A DNA stretch of 64,000 nucleotides from a virus (taxonomy: Duplodnaviria; Heunggongvirae; Uroviricota; Caudoviricetes), in the IMG/VR virus record IMGVR_UViG_3300045988_149498, one strand, 5' to 3'. The stretch's first letter is position 1; every line of letters begins with the position of its first letter. Of this stretch, positions 10,254-18,317 are shown in pieces. A program made the translations under genes and the position numbers. The notes beneath the pieces were generated by a model that saw only the letters and a program-made list of their open reading frames with translations, had not been told where the DNA came from and searched no databases.

Positions 10254-11438
10254 TCAAGCCTTAAGAGGCTTTGTGTATGTTCGTGTAATCCAACCAGTAA
10301 TAAACTCATCCCCTGATTTAACCTGCACGTAAAGCCATTGACGATCTTTCTTATCTAAAATAGCAACAATTGTGTTTTTGCCAATGCATTCAATCACTTC
10401 ACTATTTAAAGAAGGACTGACATGTAATCTTACGTTATCACCAGTTATAAACCTAAAACCATTGAGATCTTCCCACTTAATTTCTGTGTTTTCTTTAATT
10501 AATTTTTGTTTTGATATTGGTGCATCCTCATATAGGGATACAGAATATGATTCTGTCTTGTGTATTTGCGATAAGATTTGTTCTTTTGCATAATCAGCAA
10601 TAGCGCCAAGCACCACTTCTGTTAAAAGCCACATAATAATAAACTGAAGCGGGTGAGGGAGCGACTTAAATGAATCAATGAACGTCGAACTGGATTTATT
10701 TAATCCTTTGTCTTGAACATCACTTTCGTTGTGAGATGTTTCAATAGCACCTTCGACATAAGCCTGTGCAATTGATGAAAGACTTTGCTCCATTATTTGA
10801 TGTAATGAAGCCTTTTGCGCTAGGGTATATTGTTTTAATGATTCTTTTATTTCATTGTTTAAATCTATCTTATGACTTACATTTTGTCGCAATTCATTAA
10901 GTATTGCTTGCATGTTATTTAAACCAGCTTGCTTATTAAGCATCTCGAACTGGTTTCGTAACGGCATAGCAATTTCTGCCTGCTTCCTTAGCATTTGAAT
11001 GTATTTATTTGCATCATGCGGGGGATAAACCTTGGCCTGTTTCTGTAGAATTTCAAGAAATTCACGATGCTTGCTATTTATTCTTCTCAAGCTCGTCATG
11101 TTCGCAAGCTGTTTTTTAACAGAATCACTAAGTAACGATTGCAAATTCAATCTTGCTATTTGTTCTTGAGCTAGCCGCCCTATTCTTAACTGTTCTTGCA
11201 AGTTTGCCATATGTTCTCTATACGATGGAATGATTGCGTTTTTTTGCAGTTCTGCCAACTGTCTAACCAAATTATTAGAAGCATATTCTGATTTTAATAA
11301 ATCACTTGCCGATGTATATCCTGGCATTTTGATTTTACTTAAATTATCACGCCAGGTAATATTTGAATCTCTATTATAGAGATCGCTTACTGAGCCAAGT
11401 GCAAGTTTTTTAATATCCTTCACTTTATTCACCGTCAT
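10254..11438 (-). CDS. Low-GC island gene A: helical protein with one predicted transmembrane segment and C-terminal SH3b-like domain, 394 aa
   Basis: AT-rich coding sequence; long N-terminal helical region, hydrophobic segment LQFIIMWLLTEVVLGAIA, C-terminal SH3-like region; start overlaps the stop of gene B by 14 nt. Confidence 0.5.
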   Translation of the reverse strand: MTVNKVKDIKKLALGSVSDLYNRDSNITWRDNLSKIKMPGYTSASDLLKSEYASNNLVRQLAELQKNAIIPSYREHMANLQEQLRIGRLAQEQIARLNLQSLLSDSVKKQLANMTSLRRINSKHREFLEILQKQAKVYPPHDANKYIQMLRKQAEIAMPLRNQFEMLNKQAGLNNMQAILNELRQNVSHKIDLNNEIKESLKQYTLAQKASLHQIMEQSLSSIAQAYVEGAIETSHNESDVQDKGLNKSSSTFIDSFKSLPHPLQFIIMWLLTEVVLGAIADYAKEQILSQIHKTESYSVSLYEDAPISKQKLIKENTEIKWEDLNGFRFITGDNVRLHVSPSLNSEVIECIGKNTIVAILDKKDRQWLYVQVKSGDEFITGWITRTYTKPLKA

Positions 11439-11931
11439 CTTGCTTTAAACATCCATCATTTTTAGCTTCCTTGTAAATACTTGAAATTCCATCAAGAGAG
11501 AATGATGTAATTCGACGCGATCCGATATATACATCCATGTTTTTTTCTTTTGTGGCTGACGCTGACTTCCAAAAAGAATACCATTCCCTACGATTTGGAG
11601 CAGTGTTTTGCGTACCAATATTAAAGCTATCCGAACCAACAATTAAGGTAATTACATCAGCTTTACGAGAAATTGTGTCGCGTGTAGAAAAATCAGCATT
11701 CTCTTTCCCTCCACTTACATACAAATTTCTTCCAGCTATATGATCTTCGGAACCTTCCCTTGCTCCAGCATCACAAGAAAAGTTAATTGTATAACCATCG
11801 TCATTGGTTGCAGAGATTTCTCTCCACCCTTGCTCACCTCCTACCGTCCAAACGGTAGAACCTGCCATTGCTGATAATGGCAGAAAAGAGGACATTAATA
11901 AAAAGCTATACAATGACTTATATAATTTCAT
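11425..11931 (-). CDS. Low-GC island gene B: secreted (signal-peptide) protein, 168 aa
   Basis: N-terminus MKLYKSLYSFLLMSSFLPLSAMA is a typical Sec signal peptide; AAGGA Shine-Dalgarno site upstream. Confidence 0.5.
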   Translation of the reverse strand: MKLYKSLYSFLLMSSFLPLSAMAGSTVWTVGGEQGWREISATNDDGYTINFSCDAGAREGSEDHIAGRNLYVSGGKENADFSTRDTISRKADVITLIVGSDSFNIGTQNTAPNRREWYSFWKSASATKEKNMDVYIGSRRITSFSLDGISSIYKEAKNDGCLKQDDGE

Positions 11932-12019
11932 ATTTTTATCCTTTTTGTTTTAGATATTATAGGCATAGTCCATATTGTTAGATCCACTATGCCCAGAGAA
12001 TTTAATATTATTCATTAAA

Positions 12020-12511
12020 TTATGGAGCTACACCCGGCCCCCTGGCTCGTTCTTCAAGCGTACCCTGCACGTTTTGATGGCGCATTCCTGGGGCATTTCT
12101 GATTGAGTCAATGCCATTTCTTCCAACATCTTCTTTATTAACGGCATTGCTCGCCACCAGCACACCCCAGCTAGGGATAGCAAAATCAGGAGCTGTTTCG
12201 CATGCCTTTACCATATAATCGAAAGTGCTTCGATTGATCTCATTTGCATCGGGGTTTAATAGGCGAGAATATTGGTATTTAGCATTTGCGTTGGTTGAGA
12301 CTTTATACAGTTCCTGCTGCACCATCGCTTCAGAAAGTTTAAGGCGCTTCATATCTGACAGTAACTTCTTGCGCATGGATTCGTCTTCACTGACAGCAAA
12401 TCCGTAAACGTGCCCAAGGTATTTCGTATAATCGGTACAAATCTCCTTTACGCTTGATGCTGCATTAACAGTCCCAGCCATAAATAATAACGGTAGTAAT
12501 AGTTTTCTCAT
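12020..12511 (-). CDS. Low-GC island gene C: secreted protein with C-terminal Sit-like motif, ~163 aa
   Basis: Start refined to the second Met (AGGTGAGG Shine-Dalgarno site). Signal peptide MRKLLLPLLFMAGTVNA. C-terminus NAPGMRHQNVQGTLEERARGPG matches Sit NGRGMRREVVQGTLEERARGKG. Confidence 0.5.
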   Translation of the reverse strand: MRKLLLPLLFMAGTVNAASSVKEICTDYTKYLGHVYGFAVSEDESMRKKLLSDMKRLKLSEAMVQQELYKVSTNANAKYQYSRLLNPDANEINRSTFDYMVKACETAPDFAIPSWGVLVASNAVNKEDVGRNGIDSIRNAPGMRHQNVQGTLEERARGPGVAP

Positions 12512-12607
12512 TATAACCTCACCTGCCTTATAACTCATTTAGGGTACATATTTTCGCCTTTAAAAAAAAGAGGTTATTAGATCCAATTGTGCATTTATTA
12601 AACAAAC

Positions 12608-12624
12608 AATGCTCTAATAAATTT
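12608..12624 (+). promoter_or_regulatory. C1 repressor operator (Op51-like)
   Basis: AATGCTCTAATAAATTT, 16 of 17 matches to consensus ATTGCTCTAATAAATTT; upstream of c4/icd/ant. Confidence 0.6.
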
Positions 12625-12799
12625 GTATTTTTAAGTCACGAATGCTATCTTTTCGCATCATATTGACCTTTTAATCGTTCAGGCTTATAGTTCCGCCGTC
12701 GTAGCAAATTCTGCGACCAGGTTTGACAGCCTGAATGATTGTGCGGACAACCGCAGATTTCCGATATTGCGGTATTTTTGTGTCCGTTAAACCGCGTTA

Positions 12800-12880
12800 C
12801 GCCCAAATTATGGTGGGGCGTGATGGGGAGGCTTCGGCCTGCTGGTTTCACAATCGCCAGTCTGTCAACCCTGTCACGTC
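12800..12880 (+). ncRNA. c4: c4 antisense repressor RNA (approximate position)
   Basis: Segment between two direct repeats (GTTTGACAGC...GATTGTG at ~12721 and ~12891) contains complementary CTGTCAA and CACAATC elements, as in the P1 c4 model. Boundaries are approximate. Confidence 0.35.
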
Positions 12881-12938
12881 CTGCCACCTGTTTGACAGCG
12901 GGTAGCAGGTTGTTAAACCTGATTGTGAGGCCGTAACT

Positions 12939-16673: not shown

Positions 16674-17027
16674 GAGACCTGGCGGGGAGTGATCCCCGCC
16701 ACTCTTCGTGTGTCTGGTAACCTCAATGCACCCTTTTCTCCCCAATAGTGTAAAACACAATGAAGTAGAAGGAGTTATTTCACATCATGCAAAGATTCAG
16801 ACCATATCTCCCAATAGCCTTCGCGACATGATGACTTTCAGAAATATCTAGCTGTTAACAAAATTCCATACTTGCTTTGCTAATACCACCTAGATTATAT
16901 ATGGAAAAATACACCTAAAACTTAAACAAATTATATCCACAACAAACATCCATCTATTAGGATTAAAATTAATTTAATAATAAATAATACAACACCGGTT
17001 CATTTTCTAACAAACCGGTGGGCACCA

Positions 17028-18020
17028 TTATTGGAATAACTTACTGATTACATTAAAAACATTAAGGGCGTTACTTGCCACACTAGACATCTTGGCTGAA
17101 TTTTTTTCGATTGAGTCAAGAACACTTTCGACTTCCGATAAAGTTCTTCTGCTATCTGCATCTTTTCCTGAGTCTATCGCATCTTTAATTGCAGATATAG
17201 CAGACTCTAAATTCTCCTTAAACTCACCTGTCGTCTCATCCTTCAAGAGAAGTTCTAACTCTTGTTTAAGTTTTTCCAATGATGCTCTTTTCTCATCAGT
17301 TTTACTAATCTTCCCTGAATAACTGACACAAACACATTCTCTTTTATTGCAGACAGGACAACCATTTAGATAATAACTTTCAAACGCCTCGCCAAGATCA
17401 TCATCTTTAAAAATAATCCCCCATAAAGAAAACAACCAAGCATATATATCAGCACACTCTTCATGAAGATTTTCTTTGTTGTAATTTTTATCTTCAATTG
17501 ATTTAGCATAAGCCTCTTGCAACTCACCCAACTCTTCGAATAACCTGGATGAATGATAAAACCCACCAAAAGTAGACCAAATGGTTCTATTCGACGGATA
17601 GATATCATTAATCATTCGTGGCGCATAAGGCGGAAATTGCATAGGTTTAATAGCGTTATATTTATTGAAAAGCTCATCTTTAATTCCTTTTGCGCTTCTT
17701 ATTTTCTCTGGCTTTCTGTGTGTTTGAGAACAGGAACAAGGCGCCCCTAAGCAATAAGGACAGCAACTAGGGAATTTTTTATAAAATGCTTCCTGTGGTT
17801 GTATTTCAAGTTTATCACAGATTGCAAAAAGCCAAGACAATGCTTCTATATAGGTATTTTTTAATAATTCTTTATCCTGATTACCATCACGAATAAACTC
17901 ACGTGTTAAATAAGCTGTTTTCCTTGTCAGATAAGAGTACATATACTCAAATGATTTTTCTTCATTTTTTTTGCTGTAAATACCTACAATAATATTGCTC
18001 ATATCATTGATACGTAACAT
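17028..18020 (-). CDS. Tandem MazG-like (all-alpha NTP pyrophosphohydrolase-like) protein with two CxxC-type zinc ribbons and acidic coiled-coil tail, ~330 aa
   Basis: Low-GC gene. Start refined to ATG preceded by AAGAGGAA. Motifs FEELGELQEAYA and HEECADIYAWL, plus a degenerate first copy; CPYCLGAPCSC and CPVCNKRECVC; terminator hairpin at ~17000-17030. Confidence 0.55.
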   Translation of the reverse strand: MLRINDMSNIIVGIYSKKNEEKSFEYMYSYLTRKTAYLTREFIRDGNQDKELLKNTYIEALSWLFAICDKLEIQPQEAFYKKFPSCCPYCLGAPCSCSQTHRKPEKIRSAKGIKDELFNKYNAIKPMQFPPYAPRMINDIYPSNRTIWSTFGGFYHSSRLFEELGELQEAYAKSIEDKNYNKENLHEECADIYAWLFSLWGIIFKDDDLGEAFESYYLNGCPVCNKRECVCVSYSGKISKTDEKRASLEKLKQELELLLKDETTGEFKENLESAISAIKDAIDSGKDADSRRTLSEVESVLDSIEKNSAKMSSVASNALNVFNVISKLFQ

Positions 18021-18317
18021 GACATTCCTCTTAAATAAGCCAATACTTCCTAGAACCATATATGCTTCGACAAAGATTAACGGACATCTTGCCTTCACAA
18101 ACTTTGACGCTACATAAATTTAACCATGTGCATACTAAATATTTAAGGTAGAAAAGTATAGGAGTATTTATTAATAGGTAACTGTTAGTTTACACTCACT
18201 TCATACCAGAGTATTTACAAGATGTTATTTTACTCTATTCGCTAGGCGGTGGAATGCGGTTGTATCAAGGGGAGGTAAACCTCCCCCGAAGAAGATTAAA
18301 AGTACAAGGGATAACAC

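What the first reader, a model, noticed from the sequence alone, without database searches (positions are those of the whole stretch)
10254..12538. Low-GC three-gene envelope operon between the tail genes and immI, with a Sit-like peptide on a secreted protein
The 10.25-12.55 kb block is much more AT-rich than the flanking tail and immunity genes. It encodes, on the strand opposite to c4/icd/ant, two proteins with Sec signal peptides (gene C ~163 aa, gene B 168 aa) and a 394-aa protein with a helical N-terminus, one hydrophobic segment and a C-terminal SH3b-like domain; the three genes are translationally coupled. The last 22 residues of gene C (NAPGMRHQNVQGTLEERARGPG) match a segment of the injection protein Sit (NGRGMRREVVQGTLEERARGKG), and Sit carries a second PGMR copy nearby. 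The DNA beneath the shared peptide has diverged, so the motif is conserved at protein level rather than recently copied. A periplasmic protein displaying a Sit-like peptide could act as a decoy that blocks incoming phage DNA delivery, i.e. superinfection exclusion, at the position where I recall P1 carrying sim. I cannot tell from sequence alone whether these genes are the described sim genes or a different module.
Basis: partly seen in the sequence, partly recalled or inferred. Interest (0 to 1): 0.75.

Follow-up and report, generated by a model that had tools for sequence, protein, structure and literature searches.

The report
P1 sim-slot cassette with tape-measure mimic
In a P1-like phage-plasmid, the slot where P1 keeps its superinfection-exclusion genes holds three other exported proteins, and one of them ends in a short peptide also found in the phage's own injected tape-measure protein, which suggests, but does not prove, a decoy that blocks incoming phage.

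Summary
Window 10254-12538 (minus strand) lies between pmgC and the C1 operator/c4-icd-ant, which is the P1 sim slot of an IncY P1-like phage-plasmid.

It encodes three proteins:
- Gene C: 163 aa from M10, a signal peptide, a confident all-helical domain with no known fold, and a flexible tail.
- Gene B: a secreted YfjT/YkfB-family protein.
- Gene A: a variable helical N-terminus, one TM helix and an SH3b domain.

These are not simB or simC. P1's 52-aa SimA is the N-terminal remnant of gene C.

The slot is a cassette hotspot that held exported proteins in every arrangement seen. Gene C plus a YfjT-like gene is the recurrent pair. Gene A is an independent add-on.

The Sit-like tail is statistically solid: BLASTP E 9e-8, shuffle z 9.4, hhalign E 5e-7, and reciprocal PHROG hits. 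It is conserved with synonymous divergence, recurs against the resident Sit in lineages only about 45% identical, and is confined to P1-like phages. In Sit it lies in a conserved island just after a hypervariable SLT region.

Superinfection exclusion by tape-measure mimicry is the best explanation, but it is untested (confidence about 0.4). This is a new variant of a known kind, of moderate interest.

The parts
12020..12511 (-). Gene C (SimA-like), 163 aa from M10. The ORF extends to 12538 (172 aa).
   Evidence: ORF. SD GGTGAGG lies 6 nt before M10, and homologues start there. It belongs to phrog_3933. The family is found only on ~90-100 kb P1-like elements.
12461..12511 (-). Gene C predicted Sec signal peptide MRKLLLPLLFMAGTVNA, with cleavage after VNA
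   Evidence: Assigned by the n/h/c-region and -3/-1 rule on inspection. AF2 pLDDT is below 50 for residues 1-24. Invariant Cys34/Cys113 fit a periplasmic disulfide. No dedicated predictor was available.
12134..12457 (-). Gene C all-helical domain (ORF residues 28-135)
12026..12112 (-). Gene C flexible tail carrying the Sit-like motif IDSIRNAPGMRHQNVQGTLEERARGPGVA
   Evidence: BLASTP E 9e-8. phrog_2533 (the Sit family) E 1.8e-5. hhalign prob 92.4, E 5e-7. pLDDT is about 57. G151 and R153 are invariant in the family.
11962..11993 (-). Hairpin (8-bp stem GGCATAGT/ACTATGCC) in the 88-nt gene C-gene B spacer, just beyond the cassette junction
   Evidence: Sequence inspection. Homology to the Ro157c2-type cassette ends at 12032.
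11425..11931 (-). Gene B, a secreted YfjT/YkfB-family protein of 168 aa, with signal peptide ...LSAMA|GST and conserved Cys53/Cys161
   Evidence: The identical protein P0074 carries a precomputed PF27224 hit. RefSeq names it 'YfjT/YkfB family phage-associated protein'. It belongs to phrog_3429. Family alignment.
10254..11438 (-). Gene A, 394 aa: a variable, repetitive helical N-terminus, one TM helix and a C-terminal SH3b domain. PGAP uses the GTG at 11423 as the start.
10557..10655 (-). Gene A transmembrane helix region (residues 262-294)
   Evidence: It is the only Kyte-Doolittle 19-residue window above 1.6. AF2 predicts helix 262-294.
10266..10457 (-). Gene A SH3b domain (residues 328-391)
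   Evidence: Pfam SH3_3 E 1.1e-5, 26.0 bits against a cutoff of 27. Homologues carry PF08239. Foldseek prob 1.00, rmsd 1.5-1.9 A to SH3b domains of cell-wall hydrolases.
12609..12624 (+). C1 repressor operator (P1 Oc4/Op51 equivalent), 7 nt from the -35 of the predicted sim promoter
   Evidence: Exact match, one of 8 operator-like sites in the window against 0.08 expected. It aligns with the annotated P1 operator.
12576..12602 (-). Predicted sigma-70 promoter of gene C, homologous to P1 'PsimA' (predicted only)
   Evidence: Position transferred from the P1 annotation through the 96% identical alignment. Sequence read. The simple promoter scan did not pick it up.
10153..12031 (.). Variable cassette relative to the commonest (Ro157c2-type) arrangement. 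Against P1 it extends to 12371 and against P7 to 12609.
   Evidence: blastn homology boundaries.
10131..10149 (-). Conserved late promoter LPsit upstream of pmgC, which marks the fixed right edge of the slot
   Evidence: Transferred from the P1 annotation. The flank is 96.8% identical.
4559..7933 (-). sit, the tape-measure / injection transglycosylase, 1124 aa (SLT domain at 742-847)
   Evidence: ORF. phrog_2533 2270 bits. Pfam SLT. It is the P1 virion TMP according to PMC9024508.
5054..5233 (-). Sit residues 901-960, a conservation island containing motif copy 1 (VNKFMNGRGMRREVVQGTLEERARGKGT, 5066-5149)
   Evidence: Conservation is 0.80-0.92 across phages ~45% identical overall and 98-100% among E. 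coli P1-likes. K931, G937, M938, R939, G945, R950, A951, G953 and G955 are invariant.
4904..4945 (-). Sit motif copy 2, first half only (FDKLRNSPGMRKNN, residues 997-1010)
   Evidence: BLASTP E 0.006. Motif HMM 10.4 bits. It is variable among E. coli-clade Sits and was not found by the motif pattern in the diverged-clade Sits.

Best explanation
The block is one allelic cassette set in the 'sim' hotspot of P1-like phage-plasmids. In every arrangement examined the slot held exported or membrane proteins, and in P1 it holds the periplasmic exclusion protein SimC.

Most likely it is an envelope-level superinfection-exclusion or defence module.

Proposed mechanism for gene C:
- It is exported to the periplasm.
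- There its flexible tail displays the N-x-x-G-M-R...VQGTLEERARG element. The same element sits in a highly constrained island of the tape-measure protein Sit, just after its transglycosylase domain.
- Sit reaches the periplasm only when a P1-like virion ejects it. Gene C could then compete with incoming Sit for a conserved periplasmic or inner-membrane partner (decoy). Alternatively it could co-assemble with Sit and poison it. Either would block cell-wall passage or DNA entry.

Gene B (YfjT/YkfB family) is the habitual secreted partner, of unknown role. Gene A is a separately mobile inner-membrane protein anchored to peptidoglycan, and probably acts on its own.

Shown here: the anatomy, the location, the homology relations, and the significance and conservation of the motif.
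Inferred: export, the meeting with Sit, the competition, and the exclusion phenotype.
For: Location:
- The block lies between pmgC/LPsit and the C1 operator plus C4 RNA, with the promoter region and first 45 codons shared with P1 simA.

Slot cargo, across more than 60 loci, is always exported or membrane proteins:
- SimA'/SimB/SimC (P1 type)
- lipoprotein + DUF5384 (P7 type)
- gene C + YfjT-like
- gene C + SimC-like
- a 4-TM protein + YfjT-like + gene A-like
The P7 lipoprotein weakly resembles the exclusion protein TraT (E 7e-5, below cutoff).

Motif significance.

Motif conservation:
- Synonymous divergence beneath it implies purifying selection.
- The gene C tail matches the resident Sit in independent lineages: L007 18/27, E 5e-9; L009 11/18, E 3e-4.
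- NAPGMRHQ is identical between gene C and the most diverged Sit, P0085.
- The motif is confined to P1-like Sit and gene C among 1.84 billion representatives.
- The Sit island is 98-100% conserved next to a hypervariable SLT region.

Structure: the tail is flexible and the domain is folded.

Literature:
- Sit is the virion TMP and supplies P1's muralytic activity (PMC9024508).
- sim genes are dispensable for lytic growth (PMC10695390).
- TMP-targeting exclusion is known: T4 Imm binds the TMP (bioRxiv 10.64898/2026.03.06.709160), and Ltp and HK97 gp15 are cited in PMC10461980.
Against: - There is no experimental or expression evidence.
- No hit to any PADLOC defence model.
- No fold similarity to Sp, Imm, Ltp or any lysozyme inhibitor.
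- Some gene C homologues lack the second half of the motif.
- Gene C tails do not track their own Sit better than foreign Sits, and the window's gene C is closer to a Klebsiella-lineage Sit (my count of 19/26 against 17/26 from the sequences).
- The Sit island does not differ between phages with and without gene C, so no arms-race signature sits on the motif itself.
- The predicted promoter abuts the C1 operator, so expression in lysogens is uncertain.
- Export rests on rule-based inspection only.
Confidence: 0.4

Rival explanations
1. Lysogenic-conversion cargo unrelated to phage exclusion. The three proteins would modify or protect the host envelope for the benefit of the carrier cell, for example by peptidoglycan tethering through gene A's SH3b domain or by stress or serum resistance. 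The shared motif would simply reflect that gene C and Sit both bind the same abundant periplasmic component, such as peptidoglycan or a chaperone.
For: - YfjT/YkfB relatives sit in cryptic prophages with no phage phenotype known.
- Gene A is a solitary moron in other phage-plasmids.
- SH3b domains are typical cell-wall binders.
- No defence-family hits.
- The cassette is low-GC, as is typical of morons (PMC9603915).
Against: - The gene C family occurs only in P1-like elements and only in this slot, and shares the motif only with the P1-like TMP. That specificity is odd for a generic host-benefit factor.
- The characterised cargo of the slot, SimC, is an exclusion protein.
Confidence: 0.25
2. 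A function in the phage's own lytic cycle. Gene C would be made after C1 repression is lifted. It would protect the already infected cell from the Sit transglycosylase of late-arriving or released virions (spackle-like protection from lysis from without), or modulate lysis timing. It would not protect lysogens.
For: - The predicted promoter's -35 lies 7 nt from the C1 operator.
- The cassette lies directly upstream of, and co-oriented with, the late tail operon.
- From my own knowledge, P1 sim shows its phenotype only from multicopy clones.
- P1 gp5 lacks a lysozyme domain, so Sit is the muralytic component (PMC9024508).
- The SLT region of Sit is hypervariable among near-identical phages.
Against: - No structural likeness to T4 Sp or to known lysozyme or transglycosylase inhibitors.
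- The shared motif lies outside the SLT domain and stays invariant while SLT alleles differ by ~50%.
- No expression data.
Confidence: 0.2
3. The shared peptide is a historical relic of an old recombination between sit and gene C, 4 kb apart on the same strand, with no present function. The cassette is passenger DNA in a recombination hotspot.
For: - sit and gene C are close together.
- The slot is a recombination hotspot with nested breakpoints, one immediately after the motif.
- Part of the family has lost the second half of the motif.
Against: - Ten of the 17 identical residues use different codons, yet the peptide is kept.
- G and R of GMR are invariant, and N, M and Q nearly so, across homologues down to 58% identity, while the neighbouring linker has indels.
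- The motif is retained in independent lineages.
Confidence: 0.1

Closest known systems
P1 sim (simA-simB-simC) superimmunity locus; SimC is the processed periplasmic exclusion protein
   Same: - Identical genomic slot, orientation, upstream promoter/C1-operator region and first ~45 codons (simA).
- The products carry signal peptides.
- The region is a recognised low-GC hypervariable region of P1-like phage-plasmids (PMC9603915).
   Different: - simB and simC are absent and unrelated to genes B and A.
- P1 SimA is a 52-aa stump of gene C lacking the domain and the motif.
- No exclusion phenotype has been shown for this cassette.
Exclusion proteins that target tape-measure or ejection proteins: T4 Imm, HK97 gp15, Streptococcus phage TP-J34 Ltp
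   Same: They are phage-encoded envelope proteins proposed or shown to block DNA entry through the incoming phage's tape-measure protein.
   Different: - No sequence or fold similarity.
- Those proteins bind or depend on the TMP. Here the link is a peptide copied from the TMP, which implies mimicry rather than recognition, and that is unproven.
T4 Sp (spackle), a periplasmic inhibitor of the tail lysozyme gp5 (from my own knowledge)
   Same: A small, secreted, helical, disulfide-containing phage protein acting in the periplasm on the muralytic component of a superinfecting contractile-tailed phage.
   Different: - The gene C motif resembles a segment outside Sit's SLT domain.
- Inhibition was not tested.
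YfjT/YkfB family (PF27224) of cryptic-prophage secreted proteins
   Same: Gene B is a member. YfjT-like genes are the most persistent occupant of the slot.
   Different: The family has no known function. Gene B is only 28-51% identical to the other slot variants.

Membership tests
P1 simABC superimmunity system | A homologue of simC, the exclusion determinant | tested here: not met
   Megablast to P1 covers only the flanks (21% of the query). No SimC hit among window ORFs by blastp. hhalign of the YfjT-like family against SimC gives prob 0.2.
P1 simABC superimmunity system | A homologue of simB | tested here: not met
   No SimB hit in the window. P1 homology ends at window 12372, inside gene C.
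P1 simABC superimmunity system | A homologue of simA, and the same slot, promoter and C1 operator | tested here: met
   The P1 SimA 52 aa match the gene C N-terminus at 88-92% identity. The upstream region is 96% identical with the operator at 12609-12624.
P1 simABC superimmunity system | Blocks P1 infection after adsorption | not testable with these tools
   Requires plating, transduction and DNA-entry assays.
YfjT/YkfB family (PF27224) | Profile match for gene B | tested here: met
   P0074, 100% identical to gene B, carries a precomputed PF27224.1 hit. RefSeq names it 'YfjT/YkfB family phage-associated protein'. The local Pfam copy gave no hit and apparently lacks the model.
Bacterial SH3 (SH3_3 / SH3b) domain | Profile match and SH3 beta-barrel fold at the gene A C-terminus | tested here: met
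   Pfam 26.0 bits against a cutoff of 27, E 1.1e-5. Homologues are annotated PF08239. The AF2 domain has pLDDT 75-89. Foldseek prob 1.00, rmsd 1.5-1.9 A to SH3b domains.
Sec-exported proteins (genes C and B) | N-terminal signal peptide with n/h/c regions and an A-x-A type cleavage site | tested here: inconclusive
   Rule-based inspection fits: VNA|A and AMA|G. Conserved Cys pairs and low pLDDT at the N-terminus agree. No signal-peptide predictor or export assay was available.
Known anti-phage defence / exclusion protein families | Sequence or fold similarity to a described defence or exclusion protein | tested here: not met
   [not shown]
PTP-like phytase (PF14566) | Score above the gathering cutoff, a CX5R catalytic loop, and an alpha/beta PTP fold | tested here: not met
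   25.2 bits against a cutoff of 27, over a partial profile. No CX5R around either Cys (sequence). The model is all-helical with no PTP match.

The most novel reading that the evidence does not exclude
SimA-like proteins are the ancestral exclusion factor of P1-like phages and work by molecular mimicry. A periplasmic protein displays a copy of an unmutable short linear motif of the phage tape-measure protein. It thereby titrates the partner that incoming Sit needs to cross the envelope. P1 itself lost this factor, leaving the simA stump, when it acquired simBC. The hypervariable SLT region of Sit may reflect the same envelope arms race.
Probability: 0.3. Interest if true: 0.7.

Novelty: new variant of a known kind. 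Interest (0 to 1): 0.5.

Why it matters
P1 is a workhorse phage, and P1-like phage-plasmids are common carriers of resistance genes in Enterobacteriaceae. Even so, how P1 DNA crosses the envelope, and how Sim-type exclusion works, remain unknown.

- A secreted protein bearing a copy of a constrained tape-measure motif gives a concrete handle. The motif marks a probable interaction site of Sit, and gene C gives a natural competitor with which to probe it.
- If confirmed, decoy-type exclusion by mimicry of an ejected virion protein would be a mechanism not yet described.
- The work also reinterprets the annotated P1 gene simA as a remnant.
- It describes the sim slot as an exchangeable set of envelope-protein cassettes.

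Tried and rejected
- **PTP-like phytase hit on gene C.** It is below the cutoff, there is no catalytic loop, and the fold is wrong, so I rejected it.
- **A second gene C/Sit similarity.** 'DMKRLKLSEAMV' resembles 'DAMKRLNLGDV' at Sit residues 77-90, seen in two lineages with E 0.02 and 0.63. Profile-profile comparison did not recover it, so I treat it as chance.
- **Remote homology between YfjT-like proteins and SimC or P7 DUF5384.** None found.
- **Fold searches for the gene C domain.** Nothing significant. The afdb50 library was unavailable.
- **PDB sequence searches for all three proteins.** Nothing.
- **NCBIfam and PADLOC.** Nothing.
- **The motif outside P1-like phages.** Only Sit-like proteins and one junk repeat ORF, P0086, turned up.
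- **Additional motif carriers in the window.** None.
- **Covariation of gene C tails with the resident Sit.** Not seen.
- **Association of Sit SLT alleles with slot type.** Not strict.
- **The P1 genome paper (Lobocka 2004).** It could not be retrieved.
- **Literature searches.** No description of the gene C family, YfjT function or the shared motif was found.
Full report
**What the window is.** The region is 100% identical over 2.8 kb to ~95-kb IncY plasmids of E. coli and Salmonella. Its flanks are 96% identical to phage P1. On the P1 map the finding lies between pmgC, with its late promoter LPsit, and the C1 operator Oc4 with c4-icd-ant. This is the simC-simB-simA slot. Rfam finds the C4 antisense RNA at 12806-12891 and its a1b1 targets at 12685-12737. 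The C1 operator is at 12609-12624.

**Observation check.** Three minus-strand ORFs are present at the stated coordinates.

- GC content is 0.35 for gene A, 0.38 for gene B and 0.44 for gene C, against 0.474 for the window. The AT-richness therefore belongs mainly to genes B and A.
Homologues start there too.
- Both C and B have canonical n/h/c regions and A-x-A type cleavage sites (VNA|A and AMA|G), and each has a conserved cysteine pair. I had no signal-peptide predictor, so export is an inference.
- Genes B and A overlap: A's ATG lies 11 nt before B's stop. PGAP instead uses a GTG one nt after the stop. Genes C and B are separated by 88 nt containing an 8-bp-stem hairpin, so 'all three translationally coupled' is only partly right.

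**The three proteins.**

- *Gene B.* It belongs to the YfjT/YkfB family. An identical protein carries PF27224 and RefSeq uses that name. No function is known for the family.
- *Gene A.* Its N-terminal 260 residues are helical, low-confidence, and highly variable and repetitive between homologues. Its last ~130 residues are strongly conserved and comprise a TM helix at 262-294, a linker, and an SH3b domain at 328-391. The SH3b assignment rests on a Pfam hit one bit under the cutoff, Pfam annotation of homologues, and Foldseek probability 1.00 to SH3b domains of cell-wall hydrolases.

**Relation to the described sim genes.** simB and simC are absent. P1 SimA (52 aa) is identical to gene C through the signal peptide and about 26 mature residues, then diverges and stops. 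P1 homology ends at window 12372, inside gene C. So the annotated P1 simA is a truncated remnant of a larger gene. In PLSDB, 267 plasmids match gene C: 126 carry it full length, and the sampled partial matches cover only the N-terminal ~57 residues.

**The slot is a cassette hotspot.** Across about 60 related loci from IMG/VR, NCBI and Logan, I found these arrangements:

- gene C (224 aa) + a YfjT-like 158-aa protein, the commonest
- gene C (172 aa) + gene B + gene A, the window type
- SimA stump + SimB + SimC, the P1 type
- gene C (221 aa) + a SimC-like protein 33% identical to SimC
- gene C (179-261 aa) + YfjT-like, in diverged Salmonella and Klebsiella P1-likes
- a 4-TM protein + YfjT-like + gene A-like
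- lipoprotein + DUF5384, the P7 type

Every occupant is exported or membrane-bound. The P7 lipoprotein weakly resembles the exclusion lipoprotein TraT (E 7e-5, below cutoff). The right edge of the slot is fixed just upstream of LPsit, at about 10152-10160. The left edge is nested at 12032, 12372 or 12610, depending on the comparison.

The window's gene C differs from the 224-aa form by a breakpoint immediately after ...RARGPG. That breakpoint is why the Sit-like peptide ends up at its very C-terminus.

Gene A homologues also occur as solitary, oppositely oriented genes in Citrobacter ~97-kb phage-plasmids of another type. Gene A is therefore an independent module, not an obligate partner. The sim region is already listed as one of eight low-GC hypervariable regions of P1-like phage-plasmids (PMC9603915). 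The sim genes are dispensable for lytic growth (PMC10695390).

**The Sit-like peptide: significance.**

- Gene C 131-171 aligns with Sit 921-957: 21/41 identical, E 9e-8. A second, half-length copy lies at Sit 997-1010.
- Shuffling gene C gives Smith-Waterman 38.2 +/- 5.5 against an observed 90 (z 9.4, 0 of 1000). Sit is the only partner of the tail among 231 ORF segments in the window.
- Profile evidence is reciprocal. The gene C tail hits the Sit PHROG (E 1.8e-5), and Sit 923-964 hits the gene C PHROG (E 2e-4).
- hhalign of the two family alignments returns exactly this segment: 28 columns, probability 92.4, E 5e-7.
- Over the 26 ungapped residues, 17 are identical, and 10 of those 17 use different codons. 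Nucleotide identity is 65%. The element is therefore old and kept by selection on the protein.

**The Sit-like peptide: conservation and distribution.**

- In phages whose Sit is only ~45% identical to the window's, the resident gene C tail again matches the resident Sit: 18/27, E 5e-9 in a Klebsiella aerogenes element, and 11/18, E 3e-4 in a Salmonella element.
- The octamer NAPGMRHQ of gene C is identical in the most diverged Sit found, at 34% identity.
- In the gene C family, G151 and R153 are invariant and N148, M152 and Q155 nearly so. The second half, VQGTLEERARG, is present in only some members. Others continue with a Cys-containing tail.
- A search of 1.84 billion representative proteins with Sit 896-965 found only Sit-like proteins, their fragments, and one artefactual repeat ORF. 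The motif is therefore private to the P1-like lineage.

**Context of the motif within Sit.** Sit is the P1 tape-measure protein and a virion component. Its SLT domain at ~750-900 supplies the muralytic activity that P1 gp5 lacks (PMC9024508; Pfam SLT 742-847). The motif lies in residues 901-960. This is a conservation island (0.80-0.92) flanked by variable sequence.

Among E. coli P1-likes whose pmgC is 97-100% identical, Sit 561-900 falls into allele classes about 100, 84, 60 and 47% identical to the window's. Over the same set, residues 901-960 stay 98-100% identical. This argues that the island binds something conserved, rather than packing against the variable SLT surface.

**Mechanism.** Gene C is predicted to be periplasmic. 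Sit reaches the periplasm only on ejection from an infecting virion, so that is the one place the two can meet.

The best-supported reading combines three things: the history of the slot (SimC), the uniformly envelope-directed cargo, and known tape-measure-targeting exclusion (T4 Imm; Ltp and HK97 gp15). On this reading gene C interferes with incoming Sit by presenting the same motif. It would act either as a decoy for Sit's partner or as a poison subunit.

This remains inference. The evidence against it is:

- no defence-family or fold match
- no lineage-specific covariation of the gene C tail with the resident Sit
- no difference in the Sit island between phages with and without gene C
- a predicted promoter whose -35 lies 7 nt from the C1 operator, which leaves the timing of expression open

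The rivals are host-benefit envelope cargo, a spackle-like role during the phage's own lytic cycle, and a functionless relic. The relic reading is disfavoured by the synonymous divergence under a conserved peptide.

- The cassette is a different module in the sim slot, not the described sim system.
- It is modular rather than a fixed three-gene system.
- The decoy idea is plausible and now sharply testable, but unproven.

I found no literature describing the gene C family or the shared motif. I rate it a new variant of a known kind (phage exclusion or moron cassettes in a known hypervariable locus), of moderate interest.

Noticed in passing
window 5234-6253 (Sit residues 561-900): The SLT-containing part of Sit is hypervariable among E. 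coli P1-like phages that are otherwise 97-100% identical. Allele classes are about 100, 84, 60 and 47% identical to the window's. The adjacent residues 901-960 stay 98-100% identical. SLT alleles are not strictly linked to slot type. This could reflect recombination or selection on the muralytic domain.
   Followed up: partly
L001 (P1) 3936-4094; window 12372-12538: The annotated P1 gene simA (52 aa) is the N-terminal stump of the 163-224 aa gene C family. More than 100 PLSDB plasmids carry only this stump.
   Followed up: yes
L040 10001-11478: One P1-like contig combines a full-length gene C (221 aa, 66% identical) with a SimC-like protein only 33% identical to P1 SimC, and has no simB. SimC therefore has diverged relatives and is not always paired with the stump.
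   Followed up: partly
L064 5077-7035: Another slot arrangement: a 116-aa protein with about four hydrophobic helices, a YfjT-like 158-aa protein, and a 344-aa gene A homologue. Gene C is absent.
   Followed up: partly
L067 6001-7383; L068 6001-7446: Gene A homologues (460-481 aa, with a longer repetitive N-terminus) occur as single, oppositely oriented genes in Citrobacter ~97-kb phage-plasmids of a different type. They lie near an HNH gene and a 2262-aa helicase/methylase-like protein.
   Followed up: partly
L004 (P7) 2224-2745: The P7 slot lipoprotein Upf50.5 is annotated 'DNA methyltransferase' in RefSeq and PHROGs. It actually has a signal peptide, a glycine-zipper region and a weak TraT-like match (E 7e-5, below cutoff), so the annotation looks wrong.
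   Followed up: partly
window 10106-10140 (-): An 11-bp perfect inverted repeat (CTCGTAGAATC ... GATTCTACGAG) lies just upstream of the pmgC start and overlaps the position of the late promoter LPsit. It is also present in P1.
   Followed up: no
window 10254-11438, gene A residues ~50-200: The N-terminal region of gene A and its homologues is built from degenerate repeats of the type 'xQKQAGF/LQKQAxx'. Repeat number differs between homologues (357-481 aa), while the C-terminal TM-SH3b part is nearly invariant.
   Followed up: partly
window 16800-18100: A second low-GC block (0.33-0.37) contains a 356-aa minus-strand ORF at 17028-18098. It is probably another of the known variable regions of P1-like phage-plasmids.
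   Followed up: no
window 12698-12779 (+): A sub-threshold Rfam match to isrK Hfq-binding RNA (43 bits against a gathering score of 50) overlaps the c4 a1b1 target region.
   Followed up: no
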